Positions 6,058-42,222 of a stretch of DNA of 64,000 nucleotides are shown one piece after another (within the stretch, counting starts at the first letter, position 1; each line of letters opens with the position of its first letter). The DNA is from Candidatus Saccharimonadaceae bacterium (GTDB taxonomy: Bacteria > Eisenbacteria > RBG-16-71-46): the NCBI GenBank assembly GCA_035494735.1, contig DATJGS010000037.1, forward strand, positions 81,637 to 145,636, read 5' to 3'. Made by a program: the position numbers and the translations under genes. The notes beneath the pieces were generated by a model. It did no database searches. It was not told the origin of the DNA and saw only the letters and a program-made list of their open reading frames with translations.

Positions 6058-6098
6058 GAACGGCCCGGCGCCCGAGCGTCGGGCCGTTCTTGTTTGTG
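6058..6098 (+). terminator. Rho-independent terminator downstream of the HU gene.
   Basis: 10-bp stem GAACGGCCCG/CGGGCCGTTC with a 12-nt loop, followed by TTGTTTGTG. Confidence 0.7.
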
Positions 6099-6134
6099 CG
6101 ACACCGCGAGGCAACGCGACCGCGGGCGCCGTCG

Positions 6135-6246
6135 CGCGGTGGAGGCAGGCGCGAAAAGACGGGTAGGGGCCCGTCGCCCCTTCCCCACCCCCCCACCTCC
6201 CCGGGGCTCCCGCCCTCCCCGACTTTTCGCACCTGCCTCCACCGCG
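6135..6246. repeat. Large imperfect inverted repeat (about 29-bp arms, 27/29 paired) enclosing a roughly 53-nt C-rich loop. The minus strand of the loop is G-run rich.
   Basis: Arm cgcggtggaggcaggcgcgaaaagacggg at 6135-6163 pairs with cccgacttttcgcacctgcctccaccgcg at 6218-6246. The loop contains ccccaccccccc and ccccggggc. Confidence 0.6.
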
Positions 6247-6301: not shown

Positions 6302-7231
6302 ATGACTACTGGGATCGTCGTCGATTCGGTCACCAAGACCTACCGCGGTGGCGCGGTGCGGGCGCTCGACAGTGTTTCGTTGAACATCGCGCCGGGTGAG
6401 GTGTTCGGGATCATTGGGCCGAACGGCGCGGGCAAGACCACGTTGTTCGGGTGCCTGCTCGGGTTTCTCCGGCCCGATTCGGGGCGCGTCACCGTGGATG
6501 GCCATGCGGTCGACGATCTCGAGATCCGGCGCGTGACCGGCTACCTGCCGGAGCGCCTCGTGCTCGATCGCTGGATGCGCGGGCGCGAGTTCCTCGCGTA
6601 CCACCACGCGCTCGCCGGGCTGCACTCGGGGGATCGTGCGCGCGACGTCGAGCAGAGCCTGGCGCGCGTCGGACTCGAGCCCGAAGCGGGCGCGCGGCCG
6701 GTGCGCAAGTATTCGCGCGGCATGCTGCAGCGGCTCGGGCTCGCGCAGGCGCTGCTCGGTCACCCGCGCTGGGTGTTCCTCGACGAGCCGGCCTCGGGCG
6801 TCGATCCGGCGGGCGTCGTGCTGTTCCGCCGGCTGCTCGCCGACCTGAAGGGTCGCGGCGTCACCGTGCTGCTCAACTCGCACCAGCTCGACCAGGTCGA
6901 GCGCGTGTGCGACCGCGTCGCGTACGTCAGCAAAGGGCGGGTCGAGGCCATCGAAACGGTGAGCGCGGGCGCCGGCGAGTCGCGCGTGCTGCGCGTGCGC
7001 TGGGCGGCCGGCGGCGCGACGCCCACGCCCGAAGCGCTGCGCGCGCTCGCGGAGCGCGCCGGTGCCACGCTCGAGAGCGCGGGCGCGACCGAACTGCGCG
7101 TCGCCGTGACCGACGACGCCGGCGCCGCGCGCCTCCTGTCCGCGCTCGTCGCGTCCGGCCTGCCGGTGACCGAGGCGGCGCCCGAGGAAGGGCGCCTCGA
7201 GCGCCTGTTCCTGGAAGGCGGCGCGTCGTGA
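6302..7231 (+). CDS. ABC transporter ATP-binding protein.
   Basis: Walker A GPNGAGKTT, signature YSRGMLQRL, Walker B VFLDEP. Confidence 0.9.
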   Translation: MTTGIVVDSVTKTYRGGAVRALDSVSLNIAPGEVFGIIGPNGAGKTTLFGCLLGFLRPDSGRVTVDGHAVDDLEIRRVTGYLPERLVLDRWMRGREFLAYHHALAGLHSGDRARDVEQSLARVGLEPEAGARPVRKYSRGMLQRLGLAQALLGHPRWVFLDEPASGVDPAGVVLFRRLLADLKGRGVTVLLNSHQLDQVERVCDRVAYVSKGRVEAIETVSAGAGESRVLRVRWAAGGATPTPEALRALAERAGATLESAGATELRVAVTDDAGAARLLSALVASGLPVTEAAPEEGRLERLFLEGGAS

Positions 7232-7944
7232 TCCATTCGACGCTGATCCAGGCGCTGCTCCGCCAGCGCGCGGCCAGCCCGGTGCGCATGGCGCTGCTGC
7301 TGTTCATGTTCTTCGCGCCGATCCTGATCACCGCCAGCGCGCCCGGGCTCGGGCTCGGCCCGCTGGGCAACGGCTACGGCATCGTCATCGTGATCGCCGC
7401 CGGCATGATCGGGCAGGACGTTTCGTCCGGCGTGCTGCAGCTGCTGCTGGCGCGACCGATCCGCCGCGACACGTACGTGCTGAGCCGCTGGCTCGGCGCC
7501 GCGCTCGGCGGCTTCGGGTTGATCGCGGTGCAGGCCGGACTGTGCACGCTCGTGCTGTGGATGCGCGGCGCGCCGCCCGACACACGCGACCTCGCGCTGC
7601 TGCTCGGCGACAACCTGCTGCTCGCGCTCGGCCTGTGCGCCGTGCTCGCGCTGTGTTCGTCGCTGCTCGGCGGCCTCGGCGACCTGGCCATCCTGTTCCT
7701 GGCGACGCTCGCCGCGAAGCTCATGGAGGGCGCGAGCCAGCTCGCGCACTCGCCGATCCTCGGCCGCGTCGGCACGGAACTCGAGAACGTGTGCATCCCG
7801 CAGATCCACCTGTTCGAATTCATGAGCCCGTCCGGCCCGCCGTGGTTCGCGATCGTGTCGTACGTCTCCACGGTCGTGCTGTGCCTGGCGCTGGCCATCG
7901 TGGTCGTGAATCGCAAGGAGCTGTCGTATGCCGCCGCCGGATGA
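7228..7944 (+). CDS. ABC-2 type transporter permease.
   Basis: GTG start overlaps the upstream stop (GTGA); six predicted TM helices. Confidence 0.7.
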   Translation: MIHSTLIQALLRQRAASPVRMALLLFMFFAPILITASAPGLGLGPLGNGYGIVIVIAAGMIGQDVSSGVLQLLLARPIRRDTYVLSRWLGAALGGFGLIAVQAGLCTLVLWMRGAPPDTRDLALLLGDNLLLALGLCAVLALCSSLLGGLGDLAILFLATLAAKLMEGASQLAHSPILGRVGTELENVCIPQIHLFEFMSPSGPPWFAIVSYVSTVVLCLALAIVVVNRKELSYAAAG

Positions 7945-32430: not shown

Positions 32431-33156
32431 TCAGCCGCCGGGGTTTTCGATGGCCTGCCGGAGCCGCTCGCGCGACGGGATGACGAAGCGTCCTTCGCCG
32501 GTCACGAGCAATCCCTCGCGCCCCCAGCGCGACAACACGCGAATCGCGGATTCGACGGTCGTGCCCACCAAGTCGGCCACTTCCTGGCGCGTCAGCGTGA
32601 GCGGGATCTCGACGCCCGCGGGGCCCTCGCGGCCCATGCGCTCGGCCAGCGTGAGGAACAGCTGCGCGATGCGCGTGTCCACGCGCTGGCCGCGCATGTC
32701 CTCGAGCTTGCGCGTCAGCGACACGACGAGCTTCGTGAGTTCGCGAATGATGGCGCGCGCGAACTCCGGATGACGGTCCAGCAGCTCGAAGTAGTCGCGG
32801 CGCGGCAGCACGACCAGCGACACGGGCTCGAGACACACGGCGCTCGCCGGGTACGGCATGTAGTTGTACACCGCGATCGCACCGACCGGCTCGCCCTCGC
32901 CGAACAGCTCGAGGATCACGTCGCCGGCGTCGGCGTGGCGCACGATCTTCACGCGCCCGCGCACGATGACGGTGAGCTGCTCGGCCGGGTCCCCGGCGCG
33001 CCACAGGAAATCGCCGCGCGCGTAGTCGCGGAGGCTCGCGAGACTCGCGATGCGTCCCTGATCGTCGGCCGTCAGCCCGCGGAACATCGGGATGGAGCGG
33101 ACCGCGGCCAGGACCCGTTCGGATCGAGCCTCGGACGTCGCGCGCGGTTCGCTCAT
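32431..33156 (-). CDS. Crp/Fnr-family transcriptional regulator.
   Basis: cNMP-binding-like fold plus a C-terminal HTH. Confidence 0.85.
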   Translation of the reverse strand: MSEPRATSEARSERVLAAVRSIPMFRGLTADDQGRIASLASLRDYARGDFLWRAGDPAEQLTVIVRGRVKIVRHADAGDVILELFGEGEPVGAIAVYNYMPYPASAVCLEPVSLVVLPRRDYFELLDRHPEFARAIIRELTKLVVSLTRKLEDMRGQRVDTRIAQLFLTLAERMGREGPAGVEIPLTLTRQEVADLVGTTVESAIRVLSRWGREGLLVTGEGRFVIPSRERLRQAIENPGG

Positions 33157-33170
33157 ATGATGCGGATCAT
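33157..33170. promoter_or_regulatory. Crp/Fnr-type palindrome ATGATGCGGATCAT.
   Basis: TGAT-N4-ATCA core resembles the TTGAT-N4-ATCAA FNR/Dnr consensus; sits right next to the regulator's start codon. Confidence 0.45.
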
Positions 33171-33255
33171 AGTCCAGTCGGGCCGCGTGCTCCCACCCCG
33201 CTCGACGGCAACGATCTAGGCCGGAATTCCCGACCCCGTGAATCCACGACGCGCG

Positions 33256-33269
33256 TGATGCCGATCATG
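33256..33269. promoter_or_regulatory. Second Crp/Fnr-type palindrome GTGATGCCGATCAT.
   Basis: Centred about 72 bp upstream of the hemerythrin ATG, consistent with class II (-41.5) activation. Confidence 0.5.
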
Positions 33270-33333
33270 CCGCGCGCGGCGCGAACGCACGATCCTCCTG
33301 ATGGACGCGGTACCGACTTTGGAGGAGCGGACG

Positions 33334-33903
33334 ATGCCCAATACGGTGTTCGACAATCTGCGCGACGACCACCTGCGCGTGCTCGGCGACATCTCGGCCG
33401 TGGAACGCGCCCTCGAGCCCGCGAGCGAAGGGCGGCGCGACGCGCGCGGCGGCCGGGCGGTCCGAGCCAAGGCGATTCGGCCGTCGGCGACGTGGGAACC
33501 GCTGCGCCGCCTCGTCGCGTTGCTCGAGCGCCAGTTCGAGACGCACATGGCGGCGGAGGACAAGGTGCTGTTCCCGTCGCTCGAGCGGGCGCTGCCCGAG
33601 ACGAGCGGTGCGCTCCGTGAGCTCGAGGACGAGCACCGCGAACTGCGCGGCATGCTCGCCTCGGTCGCCGGCCTGCTCCAGCGCCGCGCGTCGCAGGCCC
33701 GCGACGAACAACTCGTCGTGCAGGGCCGCGATCTCGTGGACCTGCTGCGCATTCATATTCGCAAGGAAGAAGTCGTCGTGTTCCGCGTGGCCGAGCGACT
33801 GCTCAGCCCCGCGGAGCTGATGGGCGTCGCGCGCCGTCGGACCGGAAACGCGATGACCGAACTCGGCTCCGGTCGCATCCCCTCGAGAGGATCGAACTCA
33901 TGA
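33334..33903 (+). CDS. Hemerythrin-like (HHE cation-binding) domain protein.
   Basis: Four His plus Glu/Asp in H...E spacing; GGAGGAG SD; ATGA overlap with the cytochrome c gene. Confidence 0.7.
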   Translation: MPNTVFDNLRDDHLRVLGDISAVERALEPASEGRRDARGGRAVRAKAIRPSATWEPLRRLVALLERQFETHMAAEDKVLFPSLERALPETSGALRELEDEHRELRGMLASVAGLLQRRASQARDEQLVVQGRDLVDLLRIHIRKEEVVVFRVAERLLSPAELMGVARRRTGNAMTELGSGRIPSRGSNS

Positions 33904-34391
33904 AGACGACTCGACTCGTGACGCTCGCCCTGGCCCTCGCGGCTGTGGCCGCGGTCGCGGGCTGCGGCGGCAAGACGGCGGATTCGGGCACCACCACGGG
34001 CACGACGAACGTGTCGGCCTCGGGCGCGGCCGGCGGCGACGCTCTGCCCGCCGGGCTCGACGAAGGCCCGCGCGCCGCGACGACGCCCATCGACGAGAGC
34101 AAGGTCGAAGCCGGCGAGAAGCTGTTCCAGACGCGCGGCTGTTCGGCCTGCCACGGATTCGGTAAGCGCATCTCCTGCCCCGATCTCGATGGCGTGACGT
34201 CGCGCCGCACCGCGAAGTGGATCGAGACGCAGATCCTGCACCCCGACGTCATGACCAAGCAGGACCCGACCGCTCGCCAGTTGTTCGCGCAGTACGCGCT
34301 GCAGATGCCCAAGCAGGGACTGACGCCGGCGGAGGCCGCCGCCGTGCTCGAGTTCCTGAAGCACAAGAACCACGAATCGGCCGAGAAGTAA
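33900..34391 (+). CDS. Lipoprotein c-type cytochrome.
   Basis: LAGC lipobox and a CSACHG heme-binding motif. Confidence 0.85.
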   Translation: MKTTRLVTLALALAAVAAVAGCGGKTADSGTTTGTTNVSASGAAGGDALPAGLDEGPRAATTPIDESKVEAGEKLFQTRGCSACHGFGKRISCPDLDGVTSRRTAKWIETQILHPDVMTKQDPTARQLFAQYALQMPKQGLTPAEAAAVLEFLKHKNHESAEK

Positions 34392-34410: not shown

Positions 34411-36324
34411 ATGAAACGCTGGATCACGATCGTCGCCGCCGTTGTCGCTGGAGCCGTGACGCTCGCCCACCTGCCGGGATGTGCCGGCACGCGCGGCGGC
34501 GGAGGCCCCGGCGCCGCGGCCGGCAAGGTGTACGTGAAACCGGGCGAGCACGACGCGTACTACGCGTTCCTGTCCGGCGGACACTCGGGGCAGATCTACG
34601 TGTACGGCATGCCGTCGTGCCGGCACATCACCACGATTCCCGTGTTCACGCCCGAGCCCGCCGTGGGCTACGGCGTGGACGAGGAGTCGAAGGCCATGCT
34701 CGGCGGACTCACCTGGGGCGACGCGCATCACCCGGGCATGAGCGAGACCGACGGCGATTACGACGGTCGCTGGCTGTTCATCAACGACATGCCGAATGCG
34801 CGCATCGCGCGCATCGACCTGTCGGACTTCAAGACCCACGAGATCTACGGGCCGATTCCGAACGTGTCCGCGGCGCACGCGTGCCCGTTCCCGACGCCGA
34901 ATACCGAGTACGTGTTCGCGGCGTCGCGCTTCTCGATCCCGATCCCCTACCCAACCGTGCGCCCGATGTCCGAGTACGCGCAGGCGTTCAACGGCGTGGT
35001 GGCGGGCATCAAGGTGGATCCCAAGAGCGGTCATATGTCGATGGGCTTCGAAGTGCTGATGCCGCCGTTCGACTGGGATCTGGCCGACGCCGGCAAGGGC
35101 CCGAGCAACGGCTGGGAATTCTTCACGTGCTACAACAGCGAAGAAGCCCATGACTCGCTCGAAGTGAAGGCCTCGCAGAACGAGATGGACTACATCGCCA
35201 TGGTCGACTGGCGCGCGGCGCAGAAGGCGGTCGACGAAGGCAAGGCGAAGATGATCGGCGGCGCGCCGGTGCTCGATCCCAAGGACGTGAAGGGCATCGT
35301 GTACCTGTTCCCGGTGCCGAAGAGCCCGCACGGCGTCGACGTCGATCCGAGCGGCCAGTACGTGTGCGCCTCGGGCAAGCTGCAGGCGGAAGTCTCCGTC
35401 TACAGCTTCGCGAAGCTGAGCGCGGCCATCGCCGCCGGCAAGTTCACGGACGAGAAGGGCGGCATCCCGGTGCTGCCCTACGAGAACGTGATCGAAGCGA
35501 AGGTGCCGGTGGGCCTGGGGCCGCTGCACACGCAATTCGACGGCAAGGGCTACGCGTACACGTCGCTGTTCCTCGACTCGCAGATCGCGAAGTGGAAGAT
35601 CGGCCCGCCCTGGAACGTCGTCGACAAGATCGACGTGTACTACTCGATCGGCCACCTCATGGCGTCCGAGGGTGACACGCGTCACCCGACCGGCGACTAC
35701 GTCGTGGCGCTCGACAAGCTGTCGAAGGACCGCTACCTGTCCGTCGGGCCGACGCATCCGGAGGCCGCGCAGCTCATCGACATCCGCGGACCGAAGATGG
35801 AGCTGCTGTACGACTTCCCCACGTACCTCGAGCCCCACTACGCGCAGATGATCCGCGCTGAGAAGCTCAAGCCGTTCACCGTGTACCCGCTCGACAAGAA
35901 CGACAAACCGTTCGCGACCAAGCGGGCCGAGGACGCGCGTGTCGAGCGCAAGGGACATCGCGTGGACGTGATGATGATCGCCGTGCGTTCGCACTTCTCG
36001 CCCGACAACATCCAGGTGACGCAGGGCGACACGGTCTACTTCCACGTCACGAACGTCGAGCAGGACGACGACATCGCGCACGGCTTCGGCATTCTGTTCT
36101 CGAGCAAGAACATGCAGATCGAGCCGGGCGAGACCAAGACCATGCGCTGGGTCGCGGACAAAGCCGGCGTCACGCCGTTCTACTGCTCGAACTTCTGCAG
36201 CGCGCTGCACCAGGAGATGCAGGGCTACATCGAAGCGTTGCCGGCGGGCGCCCACGTGGCCGCCGTGCAGCGTCCCGATCCGGCTCGCGTCGCCGAAGTC
36301 GCGGCGCTCATGAAGCACCCATAG
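34411..36324 (+). CDS. nosZ: Nitrous-oxide reductase, clade II (Sec/lipoprotein-type).
   Basis: Seven-bladed propeller region and a C-terminal CuA site HGF...FYCSNFCSALHQEMQG. LPGCAG lipobox and no twin-arginine. Confidence 0.92.
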   Translation: MKRWITIVAAVVAGAVTLAHLPGCAGTRGGGGPGAAAGKVYVKPGEHDAYYAFLSGGHSGQIYVYGMPSCRHITTIPVFTPEPAVGYGVDEESKAMLGGLTWGDAHHPGMSETDGDYDGRWLFINDMPNARIARIDLSDFKTHEIYGPIPNVSAAHACPFPTPNTEYVFAASRFSIPIPYPTVRPMSEYAQAFNGVVAGIKVDPKSGHMSMGFEVLMPPFDWDLADAGKGPSNGWEFFTCYNSEEAHDSLEVKASQNEMDYIAMVDWRAAQKAVDEGKAKMIGGAPVLDPKDVKGIVYLFPVPKSPHGVDVDPSGQYVCASGKLQAEVSVYSFAKLSAAIAAGKFTDEKGGIPVLPYENVIEAKVPVGLGPLHTQFDGKGYAYTSLFLDSQIAKWKIGPPWNVVDKIDVYYSIGHLMASEGDTRHPTGDYVVALDKLSKDRYLSVGPTHPEAAQLIDIRGPKMELLYDFPTYLEPHYAQMIRAEKLKPFTVYPLDKNDKPFATKRAEDARVERKGHRVDVMMIAVRSHFSPDNIQVTQGDTVYFHVTNVEQDDDIAHGFGILFSSKNMQIEPGETKTMRWVADKAGVTPFYCSNFCSALHQEMQGYIEALPAGAHVAAVQRPDPARVAEVAALMKHP

Positions 36325-36376: not shown

Positions 36377-36988
36377 GTGCACTATCTCGCCGATCGATTT
36401 CAACCGCGTGAGCGCCGCCTGATCTGGCTCGCCGCGCTCATCCTGGTTCCCGTCTTCTTCCTTCCGATCCTGCCGATCTGGGTCATGAAGCTGTGGGCCC
36501 CGCAGTATCGCGAAGGGCTGACGCTGACCATCTTCAGCAACACCATCAAGGGCAACATCGAGAGCATCAACATCCTCAATCACTACGTCGGCATGCACGC
36601 GATCTCGGCGAATGACTTCAGCGAATTCAACTACCTGCCTCAGGCGCTCAGCCTGTTCGGCGTGCTCGCTCTGCTCGCCGCGCTGCTCAACCGGCGCTGG
36701 CTGGCGATCGCGGGATGGCTCGCGTTCACCGCGTTCGCCGCGTACATGTTCAACGACTACGCGCACTGGCTGTGGCACTACGGGCACGACCTCGACCCGC
36801 GGGCGCCGATCAAGCTGCCGCTGTTCACGCCGCCGCTGATCGGCTTCAAGCAGATGGCGAACTTCCGGGTGTTGAGCGTGCCCGGCCCCGGCACCCTGCT
36901 CCTCGGCGTCGCCTGGCTGCTGGGTCCGCTCGCGATCTTCTTCGAACGGCGCGCCGCGCGTGACACGCGGAAGGCGCACGCGGCGTGA
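36377..36988 (+). CDS. nosB: NosB-like transmembrane protein of clade II nos clusters.
   Basis: Polytopic membrane protein immediately after nosZ; GTG start. Confidence 0.6.
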   Translation: MHYLADRFQPRERRLIWLAALILVPVFFLPILPIWVMKLWAPQYREGLTLTIFSNTIKGNIESINILNHYVGMHAISANDFSEFNYLPQALSLFGVLALLAALLNRRWLAIAGWLAFTAFAAYMFNDYAHWLWHYGHDLDPRAPIKLPLFTPPLIGFKQMANFRVLSVPGPGTLLLGVAWLLGPLAIFFERRAARDTRKAHAA

Positions 36989-38451
36989 ACGCCGTGGACC
37001 GCGTGACGGGCCTCGCGCCAGGCCGGACCCCGGCGCCGTGGCGCGCCGCGAGACGGGGCATCGCGGCCCTTCGCGCCGCCGCGCAAGGGTTGGGGCTGTC
37101 GGCCGCGCTGGCCCTGGCGCTCGTACCCGGCGCCGCGCATGCGCGGACGACGCGCGTTCCCGCCGTGCGTGGCGCCGCGCAGGCCGCGATCTCCGCGGCC
37201 GCGCCCGGCGACACGCTGATCCTGGAGGCGGGGGTCCATCCCGGGCCGCTTCTCGTCGATCGAGCGCTGACCGTGCGGGGGGAGCGCGGCGCGATCGTCG
37301 ATGGAGGCGGTTCCGGATCGACCCTGACCGTGACCGCGTCCGGGACGCGCGTCGAGGATCTCGCCGTCCGCCATTGCGGCACGCGCGTCATCACGGTCGA
37401 CGCCGGCGTGCGCGTGCTCGAGGCCGCGAACGTCACGTTGACGCGGCTCGCGCTCGGCGACGTGCTGTACGGCGTCGACGTCGAGCGCTCGCCGAACCTC
37501 GTCGTGCGCGACTGCGTCTTGCGCGGCCGCGTTGCGGGCGGGGGCGACGACGGCGAAGGCAACGGCCTCCACGTGTGGTACTCGACCGGCGCAACGCTCA
37601 CCGGCAACGACGTCAGCCACTTCGAGGACGCGGTCTACCTGTCGTTCGCGAACGACGCGCGCGCGATCGGCAATCGCCTGCACGACGACGGGCGCTACGG
37701 CTTCCACACGATGTACTGCCAGGGCAGCGTGCTCGAACGGAACGTGTTCACGAGGAACGCGGCGGGCTGCGCCATCATGTTCTCGAACCACCTGCGCGTC
37801 GCGCACAACCGCTTCGAGCACAACCGCGGCCCGCGCACGTACGGCTTGCTGCTGCGCGACTGCTCGGACGGCACGTTCGAGGGAAACGCGCTCGTCGACA
37901 ACACCATCGCCATGTTCCTCGACAACTCGAACCGCAATCGCGTGCGCGAGAACCTGCTGCTCGACAACGGCTGGGGCGTGCTGATGTTCTCGTCGTGCGC
38001 CGGAAACGAGTTCACGCGGAACGCGTTCCTGCACGACGACTACGCGGTCGCGATCGACATGAAGTACACCGACAATCGCTTCGACGATGGGCGCGTCGGC
38101 AACTACTGGAGCGATCACGCGCCGTACGACCTCGACGGCGACGGGCTGGGTGACGCGCCGTATTCGCCCGTCGGCACATTCGCGTTCCTGTCGAAGCAGT
38201 ACCCGGACCTGTCCGTGCTCGCGAAAAGCCCGGCGGTCGCCGCGCTGTCGGTGGCCGAGCAGGTGCTGCCCGCGATGCGCCCCAGCGAGGCCATGGATCG
38301 CCACCCGCTCGTGGCGCCGCCGCCGCTCGCGCGCCAGGGCCTCGTCGCCCTGCCGCGCGGCCGGCGCGCGACGCCGTGGGCCGCGGCGGCATTCGGCTCC
38401 ATCGCGCTCCTGTCGCTGGGCGGCCTCGGCGTCGGACGGTGGCGCGCATGA
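36985..38451 (+). CDS. nosD: Periplasmic right-handed beta-helix protein.
   Basis: Parallel beta-helix repeat pattern and position in the operon. Confidence 0.8.
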   Translation: MNAVDRVTGLAPGRTPAPWRAARRGIAALRAAAQGLGLSAALALALVPGAAHARTTRVPAVRGAAQAAISAAAPGDTLILEAGVHPGPLLVDRALTVRGERGAIVDGGGSGSTLTVTASGTRVEDLAVRHCGTRVITVDAGVRVLEAANVTLTRLALGDVLYGVDVERSPNLVVRDCVLRGRVAGGGDDGEGNGLHVWYSTGATLTGNDVSHFEDAVYLSFANDARAIGNRLHDDGRYGFHTMYCQGSVLERNVFTRNAAGCAIMFSNHLRVAHNRFEHNRGPRTYGLLLRDCSDGTFEGNALVDNTIAMFLDNSNRNRVRENLLLDNGWGVLMFSSCAGNEFTRNAFLHDDYAVAIDMKYTDNRFDDGRVGNYWSDHAPYDLDGDGLGDAPYSPVGTFAFLSKQYPDLSVLAKSPAVAALSVAEQVLPAMRPSEAMDRHPLVAPPPLARQGLVALPRGRRATPWAAAAFGSIALLSLGGLGVGRWRA

Positions 38452-39359
38452 TCCGCGTGTCGGGCCTGGTCAAGCGCTTCGGCGCGATCCGTGCGGTCGA
38501 CGATCTGAGCTTCGAAGTCGAAGCCGGCGAGACGTTCGCCGTCATCGGCCCGAACGGCGCCGGCAAGACCACGATGCTCAAGACGCTGCTCGGGCTGACG
38601 CGGCCGGACGCGGGGAGCATCGTTGTCGGGCCGCACCACCTGGCGCCGACGGATCCGCGCGCGCGCCACGACCTCGGCTACGTGCCGCAGCGCGTCACGT
38701 TCCCGCCCGGGCGAAGCGTCGAAGAGGTGTTGGGCTTTTTCGCGGCGCTGCGCGGGCTCGACGGCGGCGCCGCACGCGCGGCGTTGCGCCGCGTCGGGCT
38801 CGAGTCGCTGGCGGCGCGGCGCGCGAGCGAGCTGTCCGGCGGCTACACCCAGCGCCTGTCGCTGGCCCAGGCGCTGCTCGGCGAACCCGCGCTGCTCGTG
38901 CTGGACGAGCCGACCGCCAGTCTCGACCCCGAGGCCACGTGGGAGTTCCGCTCGTTGATCGAGCAGCAGCGTCGCGACGGCAAGACCATCCTCCTTTGCT
39001 CCCACCTGCTCGCCGAGGTCGAACGCGTCGCGGACCGCGTGCTCATCCTGGTCGAGGGCCGGCGCGCCGCGCTCGAGCGGCTGTCCGAGCTGAGGCTGCG
39101 CCAGATGCGCGCAACGCAGCTCGTGATCGAGATCCGTGAGGCGGAGCCGTCCGTCGCGGCCGTGGTCTCGGGCGCGGCGCCGGGCGCGGCGTGGCTCTCG
39201 CCCACGCGGCTCACCATCGACAATGTCGACGGTGTGGGCCTCGACGCGCTGGACGCGCTGCGTCGCGCGGGCGTCGCGGTGCGCTCGTTCGAGATCCAGC
39301 GGCCGACGCTCGAGGAGCTGTTCCTCCAGGTCGTGCGGCGCGGGAGGCACCATGCGTAG
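38448..39359 (+). CDS. nosF: ABC ATPase.
   Basis: GPNGAGKTT, LSGGYTQRLSLAQAL, LVLDEPT. Confidence 0.85.
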   Translation: MIRVSGLVKRFGAIRAVDDLSFEVEAGETFAVIGPNGAGKTTMLKTLLGLTRPDAGSIVVGPHHLAPTDPRARHDLGYVPQRVTFPPGRSVEEVLGFFAALRGLDGGAARAALRRVGLESLAARRASELSGGYTQRLSLAQALLGEPALLVLDEPTASLDPEATWEFRSLIEQQRRDGKTILLCSHLLAEVERVADRVLILVEGRRAALERLSELRLRQMRATQLVIEIREAEPSVAAVVSGAAPGAAWLSPTRLTIDNVDGVGLDALDALRRAGVAVRSFEIQRPTLEELFLQVVRRGRHHA

Positions 39360-39846
39360 GCCGTGGGCGCAGTCGTTGGTTCGAGGCGACGGTGGCCGGC
39401 CCGGCACCGGGCTGGCCGCGCCGTTCCTCGCCCGACTCGCGCTCACCGCACTGCTCCTTGTGGCGTTCGCAGGTTGCGCGCGGCGCGCGGGACCGCCGTC
39501 GATCGCCGGTGGCGTCGAGTGCACCCGCTGCAGCATGGAGACCAGCAGCCGGCACTTCGCGTGCGAGCGCGAGGTCTCGGGAAAATGGCTCGTGTACGAC
39601 GCGCTCGAGTGTTTGGCTCGCGACGCGGGACGCGAAGATCCGACGGCCATCTGGCTGCCGGACTACGACGAAGGAACGCTGCACCGTGCGGACTCCCTGT
39701 GGATCGTGCACGGCGACCTCGCGACGCCGATGGGCGGCGGACTCGTGGCGTTCATGAGCCGCGCCGCGGCGGACACGATCGCGGCTTCCTCTCACGGCGT
39801 GGTCGGGCGCTGGCGCGAGATCGCGCCCGGGATGGCCAGGCCATGA
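39352..39846 (+). CDS. nosL: Copper-chaperone lipoprotein NosL-like.
   Basis: Lipobox LVAFAGC; about 164 aa; position in the operon. Confidence 0.65.
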   Translation: MRRPWAQSLVRGDGGRPGTGLAAPFLARLALTALLLVAFAGCARRAGPPSIAGGVECTRCSMETSSRHFACEREVSGKWLVYDALECLARDAGREDPTAIWLPDYDEGTLHRADSLWIVHGDLATPMGGGLVAFMSRAAADTIAASSHGVVGRWREIAPGMARP

Positions 39847-40256
39847 CGCGGCCCTACGTCGTGCTGCTCGTCGTCGCGGTCGTCGCCGCCGTCGCGCTCG
39901 GCGTGATCGGCCGGCGCCGTCCGTCCCCGCGCGCGGCGGTCACGGCGCCGATCACGCTGCCCACGGTCGCGCTCGGCATCCAAGTGCGGGACGGCGCGGT
40001 CGAACCCGCGAACGCGGCCGTGCCCAAGGATCACCGCGTCGAACTGGACGTCGTCAATCGCGGGCGCGCCACGGTCTCGGTGCGCCTCGCCGGCTACGAG
40101 GACCACGTGGCGATCGATTCGCTGGCCGCGGGCGCGTCGCGCCACGTCACGTTCGACGCGGATCGCCCGGGCGAGGACTTCGCGTGGCTGCTGGACGGGC
40201 GTCCGGTCGGGCGGCTGTCCGTGACCGGCTCGCACCTCGCGGAGGGACGGCGATGA
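39843..40256 (+). CDS. Small membrane-anchored cupredoxin-like protein with no obvious Cu ligands, inserted between nosL and nosY.
   Basis: N-terminal TM helix and a roughly 100-aa beta-sandwich with a V.L.VVN.G.....F.A..PG.Y..W-type pattern; ATGA overlaps on both sides. Confidence 0.5.
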   Translation: MTRPYVVLLVVAVVAAVALGVIGRRRPSPRAAVTAPITLPTVALGIQVRDGAVEPANAAVPKDHRVELDVVNRGRATVSVRLAGYEDHVAIDSLAAGASRHVTFDADRPGEDFAWLLDGRPVGRLSVTGSHLAEGRR

Positions 40257-41092
40257 GCCTGCGCGCGAAGTTCGTGCGCGTGCGCGTGGTCGGTGCCGAG
40301 GAGTACCGGCGCGCGCTCGAGACGCGCTGGTTGTTCGGCTTCACGACGCTGTTCGCCGCGCTGGTGCTCGGCCTGTCCTACTTCGGCCTCGCGCAGGGCC
40401 ACGAAGTCGGCTTCCAGGGGTTCGCGCGCACGACGCTGAGCCTCATGAACCTCGTGCTGCTCGTCGTGCCGCTGTGCGCGCTCCTGCTCGGCGTCACGAG
40501 CCTGGCGGGTGGCGGCGACACGCTGCCGCTGCTGCTGGCCCAGCCGGTGTCGCGCGGCGAGGTGCTGGCCGGCAAGTTTGCCGGGCTGGCCGCCGCGCTC
40601 ACCGTCGCGCAGGGCCTCGGCTTCGGCGTGGGCGGACTCGTCGTCGCGCTGAACGCCGGCGCCGACCAATTGCCCGGGTTCGTCGCGCTCACCGTGCTGT
40701 CGATGGCGCTCGGCTGGCTGCACCTCGCGGTCGCGCTGGCCATCGGCGCGATATGGCCCGACCGGCTGCGCGCGATGTCGATCGCGCTGCTTCTCTGGCT
40801 CGTGCTGGTCGTCGCGTACGACCTGATCGTGCTCGGCGCGACGACGCTGCTGAGCGGCTTCCCGCTGCAAAGCGTTCTCGTACCCGCCCTGCTCCTCAAT
40901 CCCGTGGACCTGGCGCGCGTGCTCGTCACGATCGCGGTCGGTTCGGGGGCGCTGTTCGGGCCCACGTCGGCGGTGCTGGTCAAGACGTTCGGCGCCACGC
41001 GCGGCGTCGCGCTCGGCGTCTTCGTGCTCGTGGTCGAGACCTTGGTGCCGCTGGTGATCGCGGCCCACGTCTTCCGCCGCCGCGACTGGTAG
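40253..41092 (+). CDS. nosY: ABC-2 type permease.
   Basis: Six TM segments and position in the operon. Confidence 0.8.
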   Translation: MSLRAKFVRVRVVGAEEYRRALETRWLFGFTTLFAALVLGLSYFGLAQGHEVGFQGFARTTLSLMNLVLLVVPLCALLLGVTSLAGGGDTLPLLLAQPVSRGEVLAGKFAGLAAALTVAQGLGFGVGGLVVALNAGADQLPGFVALTVLSMALGWLHLAVALAIGAIWPDRLRAMSIALLLWLVLVVAYDLIVLGATTLLSGFPLQSVLVPALLLNPVDLARVLVTIAVGSGALFGPTSAVLVKTFGATRGVALGVFVLVVETLVPLVIAAHVFRRRDW

Positions 41093-41238
41093 CCGAGCCG
41101 GCGCGGCAACGGCCGCCCCCGCCCCGCTCCCTTCCCGGCCCCGCCTCATCTGAAGGGCGTTCGAATCGCGTTTCGCGCTCCGCCGGGGGCTGGACTAGAA
41201 TCCCCGCCGCCCCTGCGAACCCCATCGAGGAGAGTGTC

Positions 41239-42222
41239 TTGTCCCGCGTTTACGATGTCTTGATCCTGGGCACCGGCCCTGCTGGATATACCGCCGCGCT
41301 GTACGCGGCCCGCGCGAACCTGAAGCCGCTCGTGATCTCGGGCTACCAGCCGGGCGGCCAGCTCACCATCACGACCGAGGTCGAGAACTACCCAGGCTTC
41401 CGCGAAGCCATTCTCGGCCCCGAGCTGATGGAACGCATGCGCGACCAGGTGCTGCGCTTCGGCGCCGAGATCGTGTCGGCCGCGGTCGACAGCGTCGACC
41501 TCACGAAGCGCCCGTTCATCGTGAGCGCGGACGGTCAGGTGTATCGCACGCGCGCCCTGATCGTGGCGACCGGGGCCTCGGCCAAGCTGCTCGGGATCGA
41601 GAGCGAGCAGAAGCTCATGGGCTTCGGCGTGTCGGCGTGCGCCACGTGCGACGGTTTCTTCTTCCGCGACAAGCCGGTGATGGTGATCGGCGGCGGCGAC
41701 ACGGCGATGGAGGAGGCCACGTACCTCACGCGCTTCTGCCATGAAGTCGTGGTCGTGCATCGCCGCGATACGCTGCGCGCTTCCAAGATCATGCAGGAGC
41801 GCGCGCTCAAGAATCCGCGCATCCGCTTCATCTGGGACAGCGAGCTGGTCGAAGTCCTCGGCGTCGAGGACAACAAGGTGCGCGGCGTCCGCCTGAAGAA
41901 CCTGAAGACCGGCGAGATCAGCGAGCACGCGACGGCCGGCGTGTTCATCGCCATCGGCCATCAGCCGAACACGTCGTTCCTCGTCGGCCAGCTGCCGATG
42001 GACGAACGCGGCTACCTGACCGTGGAGCCCGGCAGCACGCGCACCGGCGTGCCCGGCGTGTTCGTGGCCGGCGACGTGGCGGACCCGACGTACCGCCAGG
42101 CGGTGACGGCGGCGGGCACCGGCTGCATGGCCGCGATCGATGCCGAGCGCTGGCTCGAGGCCGAGAACCACGCGCACGCCGCAGAAGCCGAAACGGAGTC
42201 CGTCCCGGCGCGTCGCGCCTAA
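41239..42222 (+). CDS. trxB: Thioredoxin reductase.
   Basis: GxGxxG FAD and NAD motifs and a CATCDG redox-active site; TTG start assumed. Confidence 0.9.
   Translation: MSRVYDVLILGTGPAGYTAALYAARANLKPLVISGYQPGGQLTITTEVENYPGFREAILGPELMERMRDQVLRFGAEIVSAAVDSVDLTKRPFIVSADGQVYRTRALIVATGASAKLLGIESEQKLMGFGVSACATCDGFFFRDKPVMVIGGGDTAMEEATYLTRFCHEVVVVHRRDTLRASKIMQERALKNPRIRFIWDSELVEVLGVEDNKVRGVRLKNLKTGEISEHATAGVFIAIGHQPNTSFLVGQLPMDERGYLTVEPGSTRTGVPGVFVAGDVADPTYRQAVTAAGTGCMAAIDAERWLEAENHAHAAEAETESVPARRA

What the first reader, a model, noticed from the sequence alone, without database searches (positions are those of the whole stretch)
39843..40256. Extra membrane-anchored cupredoxin-like gene inserted between nosL and nosY
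The gene is tightly coupled on both sides by ATGA overlaps. It has a TM anchor and a roughly 100-aa beta-sandwich resembling a cupredoxin fold, but without a Cys/His/Met copper site. It is not one of the named nos genes (Z, B, D, F, Y, L, G, C, H, R, X). It could be a new accessory factor for Cu delivery or CuZ assembly.
Basis: inference. Interest (0 to 1): 0.7.

Follow-up and report, generated by a model that had tools for sequence, protein, structure and literature searches.

The report
Copper-site-less cupredoxin partner of NosL/NosY
A small, conserved gene between nosL and nosY in a clade II nitrous-oxide-reductase cluster encodes a membrane-tethered cupredoxin-fold domain that has lost its copper ligands; in two other lineages it is fused to the copper chaperone NosL, so it is probably an undescribed helper of copper insertion into the enzyme that destroys N2O.

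Summary

X belongs to a small family: about 147 hits, and 91 clusters at 50% identity, nearly all 135-140 aa. Most titled genome loci are Candidatus Eisenbacteria MAGs. In every family locus the gene sits immediately upstream of nosY, with overlapping stop and start codons. nosL usually lies upstream but is missing in five lineages.

In two divergent lineages the X domain is fused, without its helix, to the C-terminus of the lipoprotein NosL. This places the domain outside the cytoplasm and ties it to the NosL -> NosD/NosFY -> NosZ copper relay.

My best reading (0.5) is a membrane-tethered adaptor subunit of the NosFY(D)/NosL machinery. Its conserved loops fall at the inferred membrane-proximal pole. 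Direct non-canonical metal binding, involving invariant His131, is a live rival.

I found no name or paper for this gene. It is a new variant of a known system. All evidence is computational. Interest is moderate.

The parts
39843..40256 (+). Gene X: 137-aa membrane-tethered, Cu-site-less cupredoxin-like protein (stop codon included)
   Evidence: ORF and ATGA overlaps. GC3 is 0.91. 147 homologues. Weak PF13473 match, E 8.5e-5, 23 bits against a gathering cut-off of 27.
39849..39911 (+). N-terminal hydrophobic helix (residues 3-23); probable uncleaved signal-anchor
   Evidence: AF2 helix 3-23. Across 161 members the uncharged segment averages about 20 residues and its best 19-residue window averages KD 2.3. 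The flanking charge bias is ambiguous, +1.8 on each side. Orientation is inferred from the NosL fusions.
39912..39962 (+). Pro/Ala/Arg-rich tether (residues 24-40), low confidence, variable sequence
   Evidence: pLDDT is below 50 for residues 25-32 and block means are 51-55. The alignment columns are unconserved, yet nearly all family members are 135-140 aa long.
39963..40226 (+). Cupredoxin-fold beta sandwich (residues 41-128) with motifs VPKDH, GYEDR, ADRPGEDFAW and GRLxV
40227..40253 (+). C-terminal tail GSHLAEGRR (family consensus GSHLVEGHR) with invariant His131; overlaps the nosY ribosome-binding region
   Evidence: H131 is invariant in the unfiltered alignments A1 and A2 and is aligned to a His in fusion P0269. 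H136 is near-invariant (at least 90% of A1) but is Arg in the window. pLDDT is below 50 for residues 133-137.
40241..40246 (+). GGAGGG Shine-Dalgarno for nosY, inside X codons 133-135
   Evidence: Read directly from the sequence. It partly explains why the tail is conserved (junctions).
39352..39846 (+). nosL: lipoprotein Cu(I) chaperone of clade II type (lipobox FAGC; CTRCSM; D..EC; PMGGG)
   Evidence: Pfam NosL 23.3-23.7 bits against a cut-off of 24. The ligand pattern matches Prasser et al. 2021. 33% identity, E 3e-18, to the N-terminal half of fusion P0269. Eight-nt overlap with nosF.
40253..41092 (+). nosY: ABC-2 permease, translationally coupled to X
   Evidence: PF12679 E 4e-23. It follows X in every family locus.
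38448..39359 (+). nosF: ABC ATPase (ATGA overlap with nosD)
   Evidence: PF00005 E 5e-32; ORF.
36985..38451 (+). nosD: beta-helix copper-insertion protein with a hydrophobic C-terminal segment
   Evidence: TIGR04247 E 2e-108; translation.
36377..36988 (+). nosB-like polytopic membrane protein (GTGA overlap with nosD)
   Evidence: Position after nosZ, with no family hit. Fused to NosD in L042. The nosB name rests on position and on my knowledge of clade II clusters.
34411..36324 (+). nosZ: Sec-dependent (clade II) nitrous-oxide reductase
   Evidence: TIGR04246 E 5e-259, 860 bits.
33900..34391 (+). c-type cytochrome upstream of nosZ (nosC-like)
   Evidence: PF00034 E 5.5e-12.

Best explanation
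X is an accessory subunit of the copper-insertion machinery of a Sec-dependent (clade II) nitrous-oxide reductase.

Its N-terminal helix holds it in the cytoplasmic membrane. A roughly 17-residue flexible tether presents a cupredoxin-fold domain on the periplasmic side. The domain descends from membrane-anchored blue-copper proteins but has lost the type-1 site, so it carries no electrons.

Instead it acts as an adaptor. Its conserved pole, made of the loops PKDH, GYEDR and ADRPGED plus the tail beginning GSH131, is the pole where the tether enters. It therefore faces the membrane. There it contacts the periplasmic face of NosY/NosD and the lipoprotein NosL, holding NosL at the NosDFY complex so that Cu(I) passes NosL -> NosD -> NosZ.

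Shown here: the fold, the ligand loss, the conservation, the strict X-nosY coupling and the NosL::X fusions.

Inferred: the periplasmic orientation, the membrane-facing conserved pole, physical contact with NosY/NosD/NosL, and the adaptor role.

For: (2) Ligand loss. The alignment with Cu-site cupredoxin P0203 puts Trp at the Cys position and substitutes the His, His and Met positions. The mature domains average 0.16 Cys and 0.66 Met.

(3) Synteny. X lies immediately upstream of nosY in all family loci, including members only 28-35% identical. 36 of 41 X/nosY junctions are ATGA or GTGA, and the other five are TGATG.

(4) Fusions.
- L032 ORF 6533-7303 has a lipoprotein-like signal, a NosL domain (60.9 bits) and an X domain (Cupredoxin_1 E 6e-5), with no transmembrane segment between them.
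- P0269, found on two contigs from two samples, has the lipobox LLAGC and a NosL half 33% identical to the window NosL (E 3e-18). Its X half matches the family profile at 94% probability, E 1e-7. The gene order there is nosF, nosL::X, nosY.
- The two fused domains are not each other's nearest relatives.

(5) Conserved positions. These lie in alternate loops (residues 61-64, 84-88, 106-112) and in the tail. By strand alternation in the AF2 model and cupredoxin topology, all of them sit on the pole opposite the former Cu site, where the N-terminal tether enters. This step is inference.

(6) Published model. NosL passes Cu via NosD in NosDFY to NosZ, as cited. Prasser et al. raised the problem of how lipoprotein NosL meets the inner-membrane NosD.
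Against: - No experiment, expression data or complex model supports contact with NosY, NosD or NosL.
- The positive-inside rule does not decide the orientation: net charge is +1.8 on both flanks.
- X persists where nosL is not adjacent (L004, L015, L028, L034, L046/47), so it cannot be only a NosL tether.
- Invariant His131, the conserved carboxylates and the metal-binding nearest relatives (FtrB, EfeO, CupA) fit a metal-binding role at least as well.
- Part of the tail conservation is explained by the overlapping nosY Shine-Dalgarno and start codon.
Confidence: 0.5

Rival explanations
1. X is itself a metal-binding relay. A non-canonical site is built from invariant His131, usually His136, Tyr85 and the conserved carboxylates (E86, D87, D107, E111, D112). 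This site captures copper and passes it to or from NosL or NosD. It may substitute for NosL where nosL is missing.
For: - H131 and Y85 are invariant, and H136 is near-invariant, at least 90% of A1.
- FtrB, the closest solved sequence relative (E 0.007), lacks the His-His-Cys site. It is nonetheless reported to bind Cu2+ with affinities down to the sub-micromolar range (0.32 uM quoted) through putative D118/H121, and it binds Mn2+ through carboxylates.
- Prasser et al. propose that an exposed His on a partner protein releases Cu(I) from NosL.
- X persists in five lineages without an adjacent nosL.
Against: - There are no Cys or Met ligands, which are the usual periplasmic Cu(I) ligands.
- The window protein itself has Arg at position 136, and both fusions lack His136.
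- Y85 and the His131 position are shared with genuine cupredoxin P0203, so they may be structural.
- Conservation of E134, G135 and R137 is confounded by the nosY Shine-Dalgarno and start overlap.
- The 3D proximity of these residues was not measured.
Confidence: 0.25
2. X is a structural subunit of the NosFY ABC module only. Its transmembrane helix packs against NosY and the domain stabilises or gates the complex. It has no specific interaction with NosL or copper, much as the copper-less cupredoxin domain of quinol oxidase subunit II (CyoA) serves a structural role.
For: - The X-nosY adjacency and stop/start overlap are universal, whereas nosL is dispensable in the neighbourhood.
- Leu8 in the helix is invariant.
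Against: Two separate fusions of the domain to NosL, without the helix, are hard to explain if the domain has nothing to do with NosL and if the helix is the essential part.
Confidence: 0.15
3. The domain faces the cytoplasm (N-out, C-in), as in the Streptococcus copper chaperone CupA, and works with NosF or with cytoplasmic copper.
For: The charge bias around the helix is neutral, +1.8 against +1.8. CupA is a precedent for an N-terminally anchored cytoplasmic cupredoxin-fold chaperone (its topology is from my own knowledge).
Against: - The fusions place the domain directly after the secreted lipoprotein NosL, with no intervening membrane segment.
- The nearest Cu-binding relative, P0203, has a type-1 ligand set. 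Such proteins are extracytoplasmic (established knowledge), and it shows the same N-terminal helix and flanking-charge pattern.
- X has none of CupA's Cys/Met ligands.
Confidence: 0.05
4. X is a decaying or non-functional remnant, or a mis-called ORF in a GC-rich genome.
For: High-GC DNA yields many spurious long ORFs; numerous antisense ORFs appear.
Against: - GC3 in the X frame is 0.91, like its neighbours.
- 147 homologues keep a narrow length range and conserved motifs across sequences down to about 28% identity.
- Operon position and translational coupling are conserved.
Confidence: 0.02

Closest known systems
Pfam PF13473 Cupredoxin_1, the EfeO-type cupredoxin-like domains (e.g. PDB 4hcf, the EfeO N-terminal domain 7wgu, Brucella FtrB 8vuk)
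   Different: The query scores below the Pfam gathering cut-off (23 against 27 bits). All four type-1 ligand positions are substituted. The context is a nos ABC module, not an Ftr1/EfeU iron permease. X has its own conserved motifs (GYEDR, ADRPGEDFAW, GSH) and an N-terminal membrane helix.
CupA, the membrane-anchored cupredoxin-fold Cu(I) chaperone of Streptococcus pneumoniae (PDB 4f2e)
   Different: CupA binds Cu(I) through Cys and Met residues, which X lacks. CupA faces the cytoplasm and serves the P-type ATPase CopA (my own knowledge). The NosL fusions place X outside the cytoplasm, and X is paired with an ABC-2 permease.
NosL (PF05573), the lipoprotein Cu(I) chaperone of nos clusters
   Same: Same operon, the same inferred compartment, both tethered to a membrane by the N-terminus, and physically fused to X in two lineages.
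   Different: The fold and sequence are unrelated. X gives no NosL hit and has no CxxCxM or Met ligands.
NosP/NosQ, small accessory proteins of clade I nos clusters (bioRxiv 10.64898/2025.12.16.694761)
   Same: Recently recognised small extra nos-cluster proteins that aid NosZ maturation and lie near nosL.
   Different: NosP/Q are reported only in clade I clusters, lack signal peptides, bind NosZ in the cytoplasm and are co-exported with it. X is in clade II clusters, has an N-terminal hydrophobic helix and is coupled to nosY.
Copper-less cupredoxin domain of quinol oxidase subunit II (CyoA, PDB 1cyx / 7xmc_B)
   Different: CyoA has two transmembrane helices and belongs to a haem-copper oxidase. 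There is no sequence similarity and the context is different.

Membership tests
Cupredoxin fold / Pfam PF13473 Cupredoxin_1 | Greek-key beta-sandwich of the cupredoxin type | tested here: met
Cupredoxin fold / Pfam PF13473 Cupredoxin_1 | Sequence score at or above the Pfam gathering cut-off (27 bits) | tested here: not met
   The query scores 23 bits, E 8.5e-5. At family level, 30 of 53 members match at E <= 1e-3, best 4.1e-9. X is therefore a divergent offshoot, homologous to the family, but the query is not a threshold member.
Type-1 (blue) copper proteins | His, Cys, His and Met (or equivalent) copper ligand set in the loop after strand 3 and in the loop between the last two strands | tested here: not met
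   In the alignment with P0203, Cys aligns to Trp115, the loop His to Arg120, Met to Arg124, and the first His to a non-ligand residue. The query has no Cys at all.
NosL (PF05573) | NosL domain with CxxCxM and a distal Met as copper ligands | tested here: not met
   X gives no NosL hit in Pfam or NCBIfam. The neighbouring gene (39352-39846) carries these motifs.
CupA-type membrane-anchored Cu(I) chaperone | N-terminal transmembrane helix plus a cupredoxin-fold domain | tested here: met
CupA-type membrane-anchored Cu(I) chaperone | Cys/Met Cu(I) site and a cytoplasmic orientation | tested here: not met
   There is no Cys in the query, and the family averages 0.16 Cys per domain. The fusions to secreted NosL argue for an extracytoplasmic location. 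The orientation itself is inferred, not measured.
EfeO/FtrB-type (Cup-II) ferroxidase-associated cupredoxins | Non-canonical Asp/His Cu2+ site plus a carboxylate Fe2+ site | tested here: inconclusive
   X has conserved carboxylates and His131. However, the profile alignment to FtrB covers only residues 43-80, so the site positions could not be compared.
EfeO/FtrB-type (Cup-II) ferroxidase-associated cupredoxins | Encoded with an Ftr1/EfeU-type iron permease | tested here: not met
   All family loci are nos clusters. X lies between nosF or nosL and nosY.
Named nos accessory proteins (NosR, X, B, G, H, C, D, F, Y, L, P, Q) | Sequence match to the family model, or the published description | tested here: not met
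   Pfam and NCBIfam give no nos-family hit for X. The NosP/Q description (clade I, no signal peptide) does not fit. NosP/Q sequences were not compared directly.
Component of the nos copper-maturation module (functional membership) | Conserved co-location and co-translation with the nosD, F, Y and L genes across lineages | tested here: met
   All family loci; two NosL::X fusions.
Component of the nos copper-maturation module (functional membership) | Requirement for NosZ copper loading or N2O reduction | not testable with these tools
   This needs genetics or biochemistry. No cultured host is known among the loci found (record titles).

The most novel reading that the evidence does not exclude
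X is a new class of periplasmic copper-relay protein: a cupredoxin that abandoned its classical site and evolved a new His/Tyr/carboxylate site at the opposite, membrane-facing pole. It accepts copper from NosL, or replaces NosL where nosL is absent, and feeds NosD at the NosFY complex. It would be a previously unseen step in assembling the CuA and CuZ centres of the clade II N2O reductases of this lineage.
Probability: 0.2. Interest if true: 0.7.

Novelty: new variant of a known kind. Interest (0 to 1): 0.5.

Why it matters
N2O reductase is the only known biological sink for the greenhouse gas N2O. Clade II (Sec-dependent) enzymes are widespread in the environment, but their maturation has been studied far less than that of clade I (my own knowledge). 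The structural model of copper delivery, NosL -> NosD/NosFY -> NosZ, comes from a clade I proteobacterium.

A conserved extra protein that is translationally coupled to nosY and fused to NosL in some lineages indicates that this clade II lineage, mostly uncultured Candidatus Eisenbacteria, uses an additional component at that step. If confirmed, three things follow:
- It would add a named accessory gene to nos cluster annotation.
- It would give a handle on how NosL is positioned at the inner-membrane complex.
- It could matter for heterologous expression of clade II NosZ.

It is also a clear example of a cupredoxin domain repurposed after losing its metal site.

Tried and rejected
- **X as a duplicate of the NosZ CuA domain.** Rejected as not detectable. 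BLASTP against the window NosZ C-terminal 137 aa gives E 1.7. The family profile against PDB NosZ gives E 0.4-1.0.
- **P0203 as an ancestral Cu-binding form in a nos cluster.** P0203 is a transmembrane-anchored genuine cupredoxin, about 35% identical to X. It is not in a nos cluster: it is a stand-alone gene in CP002344.1 beside biotin-ligase and homoserine-dehydrogenase genes.
- **A third fusion in L041 (P0209).** Rejected. Stop codons lie upstream of the domain on this 899-nt contig, so nothing can be said.
- **Positive-inside rule for topology.** Uninformative.
- **phmmer of the window NosL against PDB.** It found no NosL chains. NosL identity rests on the borderline Pfam score, the ligand motifs and similarity to the fusion proteins.
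- **Foldseek against AFDB50.** The library was unavailable.
- **Mueller et al. 2022 (NosDFY-NosL cryo-EM).** The paper is not held. It is used only as cited by other papers and from memory.
- **Structure prediction of fusion P0269.** Abandoned.
- **Searching with the L032 fused domain alone.** It found only one relative.
- **Literature searches for an extra cupredoxin gene in nos clusters, or for Eisenbacteria nos clusters.** No description was found.

Full report
**Observation**

The window carries a compact clade II nos cluster on the + strand:
- a Crp/FNR-type regulator (32431-33156, on the - strand)
- hemerythrin (33301-33903)
- a c-type cytochrome (33900-34391)
- Sec-dependent nosZ (34411-36324; TIGR04246, 860 bits)
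- a nosB-like membrane protein (36377-36988)
- nosD (36985-38451; TIGR04247, E 2e-108)
- nosF (38448-39359)
- nosL (39352-39846)
- the flagged ORF, here called X (39843-40256)
- nosY (40253-41092; PF12679)

Every junction from nosB to nosY is an overlap: GTGA, ATGA, 8 nt, ATGA, ATGA. Codon-position GC in the X frame (0.80/0.53/0.91) matches the neighbouring genes in this 70.7% GC sequence. The ORF is real and coding.

**The protein**

X is 137 aa. AlphaFold2, run on a 53-sequence alignment, gives three regions (mean pLDDT 75):
- a helix at residues 3-23
- a low-confidence Pro/Ala/Arg-rich linker at residues 24-40
- a nine-strand beta sandwich at residues 41-128, with block pLDDT 80-87

At sequence level the query matches Pfam PF13473 below threshold (23 bits against 27). 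Thirty of 53 family members match at E <= 1e-3. The closest solved sequence relative is FtrB (E 0.007).

The alignment with P0203, a genuine membrane-anchored cupredoxin that retains the HxxxxC...H...M ligand pattern, shows the losses directly. X has Trp115 at the Cys position and Arg or other residues at the His, His and Met positions.

**The family and its neighbourhood**

X has 147 homologues in the 5.8-billion-sequence collection. It has 91 clusters at 50% identity among 1.84 billion representatives. Nearly all are 135-140 aa. Among GTDB species representatives, 24 loci were found, and 17 of them are titled Candidatus Eisenbacteria.

In every family locus, X lies directly upstream of nosY. 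This includes members only about 28-35% identical (P0180, P0191, P0192, P0201, P0213). Of 41 X/nosY junctions, 36 are ATGA or GTGA and five are TGATG.

nosL usually lies directly upstream of X. It is absent between nosF and X in L004, L015, L028, L034 and L046/47. The constant partner is therefore nosY, not nosL.

**Fusions**

Two lineages encode NosL and the X domain as a single lipoprotein, with no membrane segment between the two parts.

- L032 comes from a MAG titled Thermodesulfobacteriota. Its ORF 6533-7303 (256 aa) scores 60.9 bits for NosL and E 6e-5 for Cupredoxin_1. It lies directly upstream of nosY.
- P0269 (241 aa) was found on two contigs from two samples, between nosF and nosY. 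It has the lipobox LLAGC. Its N-terminal half is 33% identical to the window NosL (E 3e-18) and keeps the CxxCSM and Met-Gly-Gly motifs. Its C-terminal half aligns to the X family profile over the whole domain (hhalign probability 94%, E 1e-7).

Neither fused domain is the other's nearest relative. That fits two separate fusion events, or at least a very deep divergence.

NosL is a secreted lipoprotein. The fusions therefore place the X domain outside the cytoplasm and tie it functionally to NosL. This matters because the charge distribution around the X helix does not decide the orientation: it is +1.8 on each side over 161 members.

**Conserved surface**

In the unfiltered alignments the invariant positions are Y85, P109, G110, V127 and H131. 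Near-invariant positions are P55, G84, D107, R108, D112, F113, W115, G119, G123, G129, S130, L132, H136 and R137.

These fall in the loops at 61-64 (PKDH), 84-88 (GYEDR) and 106-112 (ADRPGED), and in the C-terminal tail. The other loops (49-52, 72-78, 94-99) are variable, and the 117-120 hairpin keeps only D118 and G119.

The loop after strand 3 (72-78) and the last hairpin (117-120) correspond to the classical copper site. Strand alternation in the model then puts all the conserved loops and both chain termini at the opposite pole. That pole is where the tether enters, so it should face the membrane. In the fusions it is also the pole attached to NosL. I could not inspect coordinates, so this is an inference from topology.

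One caveat applies to the tail. Codons 133-135 contain the GGAGGG Shine-Dalgarno of nosY (40241-40246), and codon 137 overlaps the nosY start. Conservation of E134, G135 and R137 is therefore partly a nucleotide-level constraint. His131 lies outside that region. It is kept in both fusion proteins, whose tails otherwise differ. His136 is Arg in the window protein itself.

**Mechanism**

The accepted outline is that NosL hands Cu(I) to NosD in the NosDFY complex, which then loads NosZ (as cited). Prasser et al. pointed out the spatial problem of a lipoprotein chaperone meeting an inner-membrane complex. They also proposed that an exposed His on a partner protein releases Cu(I) from NosL.

The window NosL has the clade II ligand pattern: CTRCSM, swapped Asp/Cys, and PMGGG.

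Against this background, the best-supported reading is that X is a membrane-tethered periplasmic adaptor subunit of the NosFY(D)/NosL machinery, with confidence about 0.5. The main rival, at about 0.25, is that the conserved His/Tyr/carboxylate pole is itself a non-canonical metal site in the relay. FtrB, which lacks the classical ligands yet binds Cu2+, and CupA are precedents for that.

The other rivals rank lower:
- A purely structural NosY subunit with no link to NosL is disfavoured by the fusions (about 0.15).
- A cytoplasmic orientation is disfavoured by the fusions (about 0.05).
- A spurious or decaying ORF is contradicted by the conservation (about 0.02).

**Comparison with known systems, and novelty**

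X works like, but is not a member of, the CupA, FtrB/EfeO or NosL families. It shares the fold with the first two and the operon and compartment with the third. It fails their defining ligand or context features (see the membership table).

It matches no Pfam or NCBIfam model for a named nos protein. It also does not fit the description of the recently named NosP/NosQ.

Database names are only 'hypothetical protein' or 'cupredoxin domain-containing protein'. Five literature searches and two targeted look-ups inside hit papers found no description of the gene.

I rate it a new variant of a known kind: a nos maturation module with one additional, previously unnamed component. It is restricted to one mostly uncultured lineage plus scattered relatives. 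Interest is moderate (0.5). The finding is solid and testable, but it is an elaboration of a known pathway, and all the evidence is computational.

Noticed in passing
L042 5824-7881; L046 6151-8103: NosB is fused to the N-terminus of NosD. In L042 the protein is 685 aa, and its first ~230 residues are 45% identical to the window NosB (E 2e-56). L046 has a 650-aa NosD at the same position, with no separate nosB. This suggests that NosB, whose role in clade II is unclear, is physically part of the NosD module. In the window, nosB and nosD overlap by GTGA (36985-36988).
   Followed up: partly
window about 38370-38440 (NosD C-terminus); L032 4522-5976: NosD in this cluster, and in L032, ends in a hydrophobic segment that looks like a C-terminal membrane anchor (window: ...AAAAFGSIALLSLGGLGVGRWRA). 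This feature might relate to the presence of X.
   Followed up: no
L004, L015, L028, L034, L046/L047: nosL is missing between nosF and X in five lineages. L004 has only a 44-aa ORF there, with no similarity to NosL. X and nosY are retained in all five. Whether nosL is encoded elsewhere in those genomes is unknown.
   Followed up: partly
window 32431-34391; L046 3178-4170: A Crp/FNR regulator (divergent strand), a hemerythrin and a c-type cytochrome precede nosZ in most related loci. In L046 the hemerythrin and cytochrome c are fused into one 330-aa protein. This may be an O2/NO-sensing or electron-donor module.
   Followed up: no
window 39843-40256 (protein P0001): NCBI labels the identical protein as coming from a 'Candidatus Saccharimonadaceae bacterium' MAG. 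Its nos cluster, however, is 74-84% identical at NosZ level to Candidatus Eisenbacteria loci, and the window is 70.7% GC. The taxonomic label or the binning of this contig looks doubtful.
   Followed up: no
window 40239-40256: The last codons of X double as the Shine-Dalgarno (GGAGGG) and start codon of nosY. The sequence CACCGATGA recurs across loci, so the apparent protein-level conservation of the tail (EGHR) is confounded by translational-coupling signals.
   Followed up: yes
L032 about 6060-6170: The nosF gene of this MAG contig contains a masked run of N. The nosL::X fusion ORF downstream is uninterrupted.
   Followed up: no
window 38115-39650 (-), 40094-41149 (-), 36778-38304 (-): Very long antisense ORFs (351-511 aa) overlap the nos genes. 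They are the usual by-product of about 71% GC and high GC3, and they should not be annotated as genes.
   Followed up: no
L001 9259-10455; L004 9253-10560: In several Eisenbacteria loci an NnrS-family membrane protein follows nosY. In the window, nosY is instead followed by a thioredoxin-reductase-like gene (within ORF 40474-42222).
   Followed up: no
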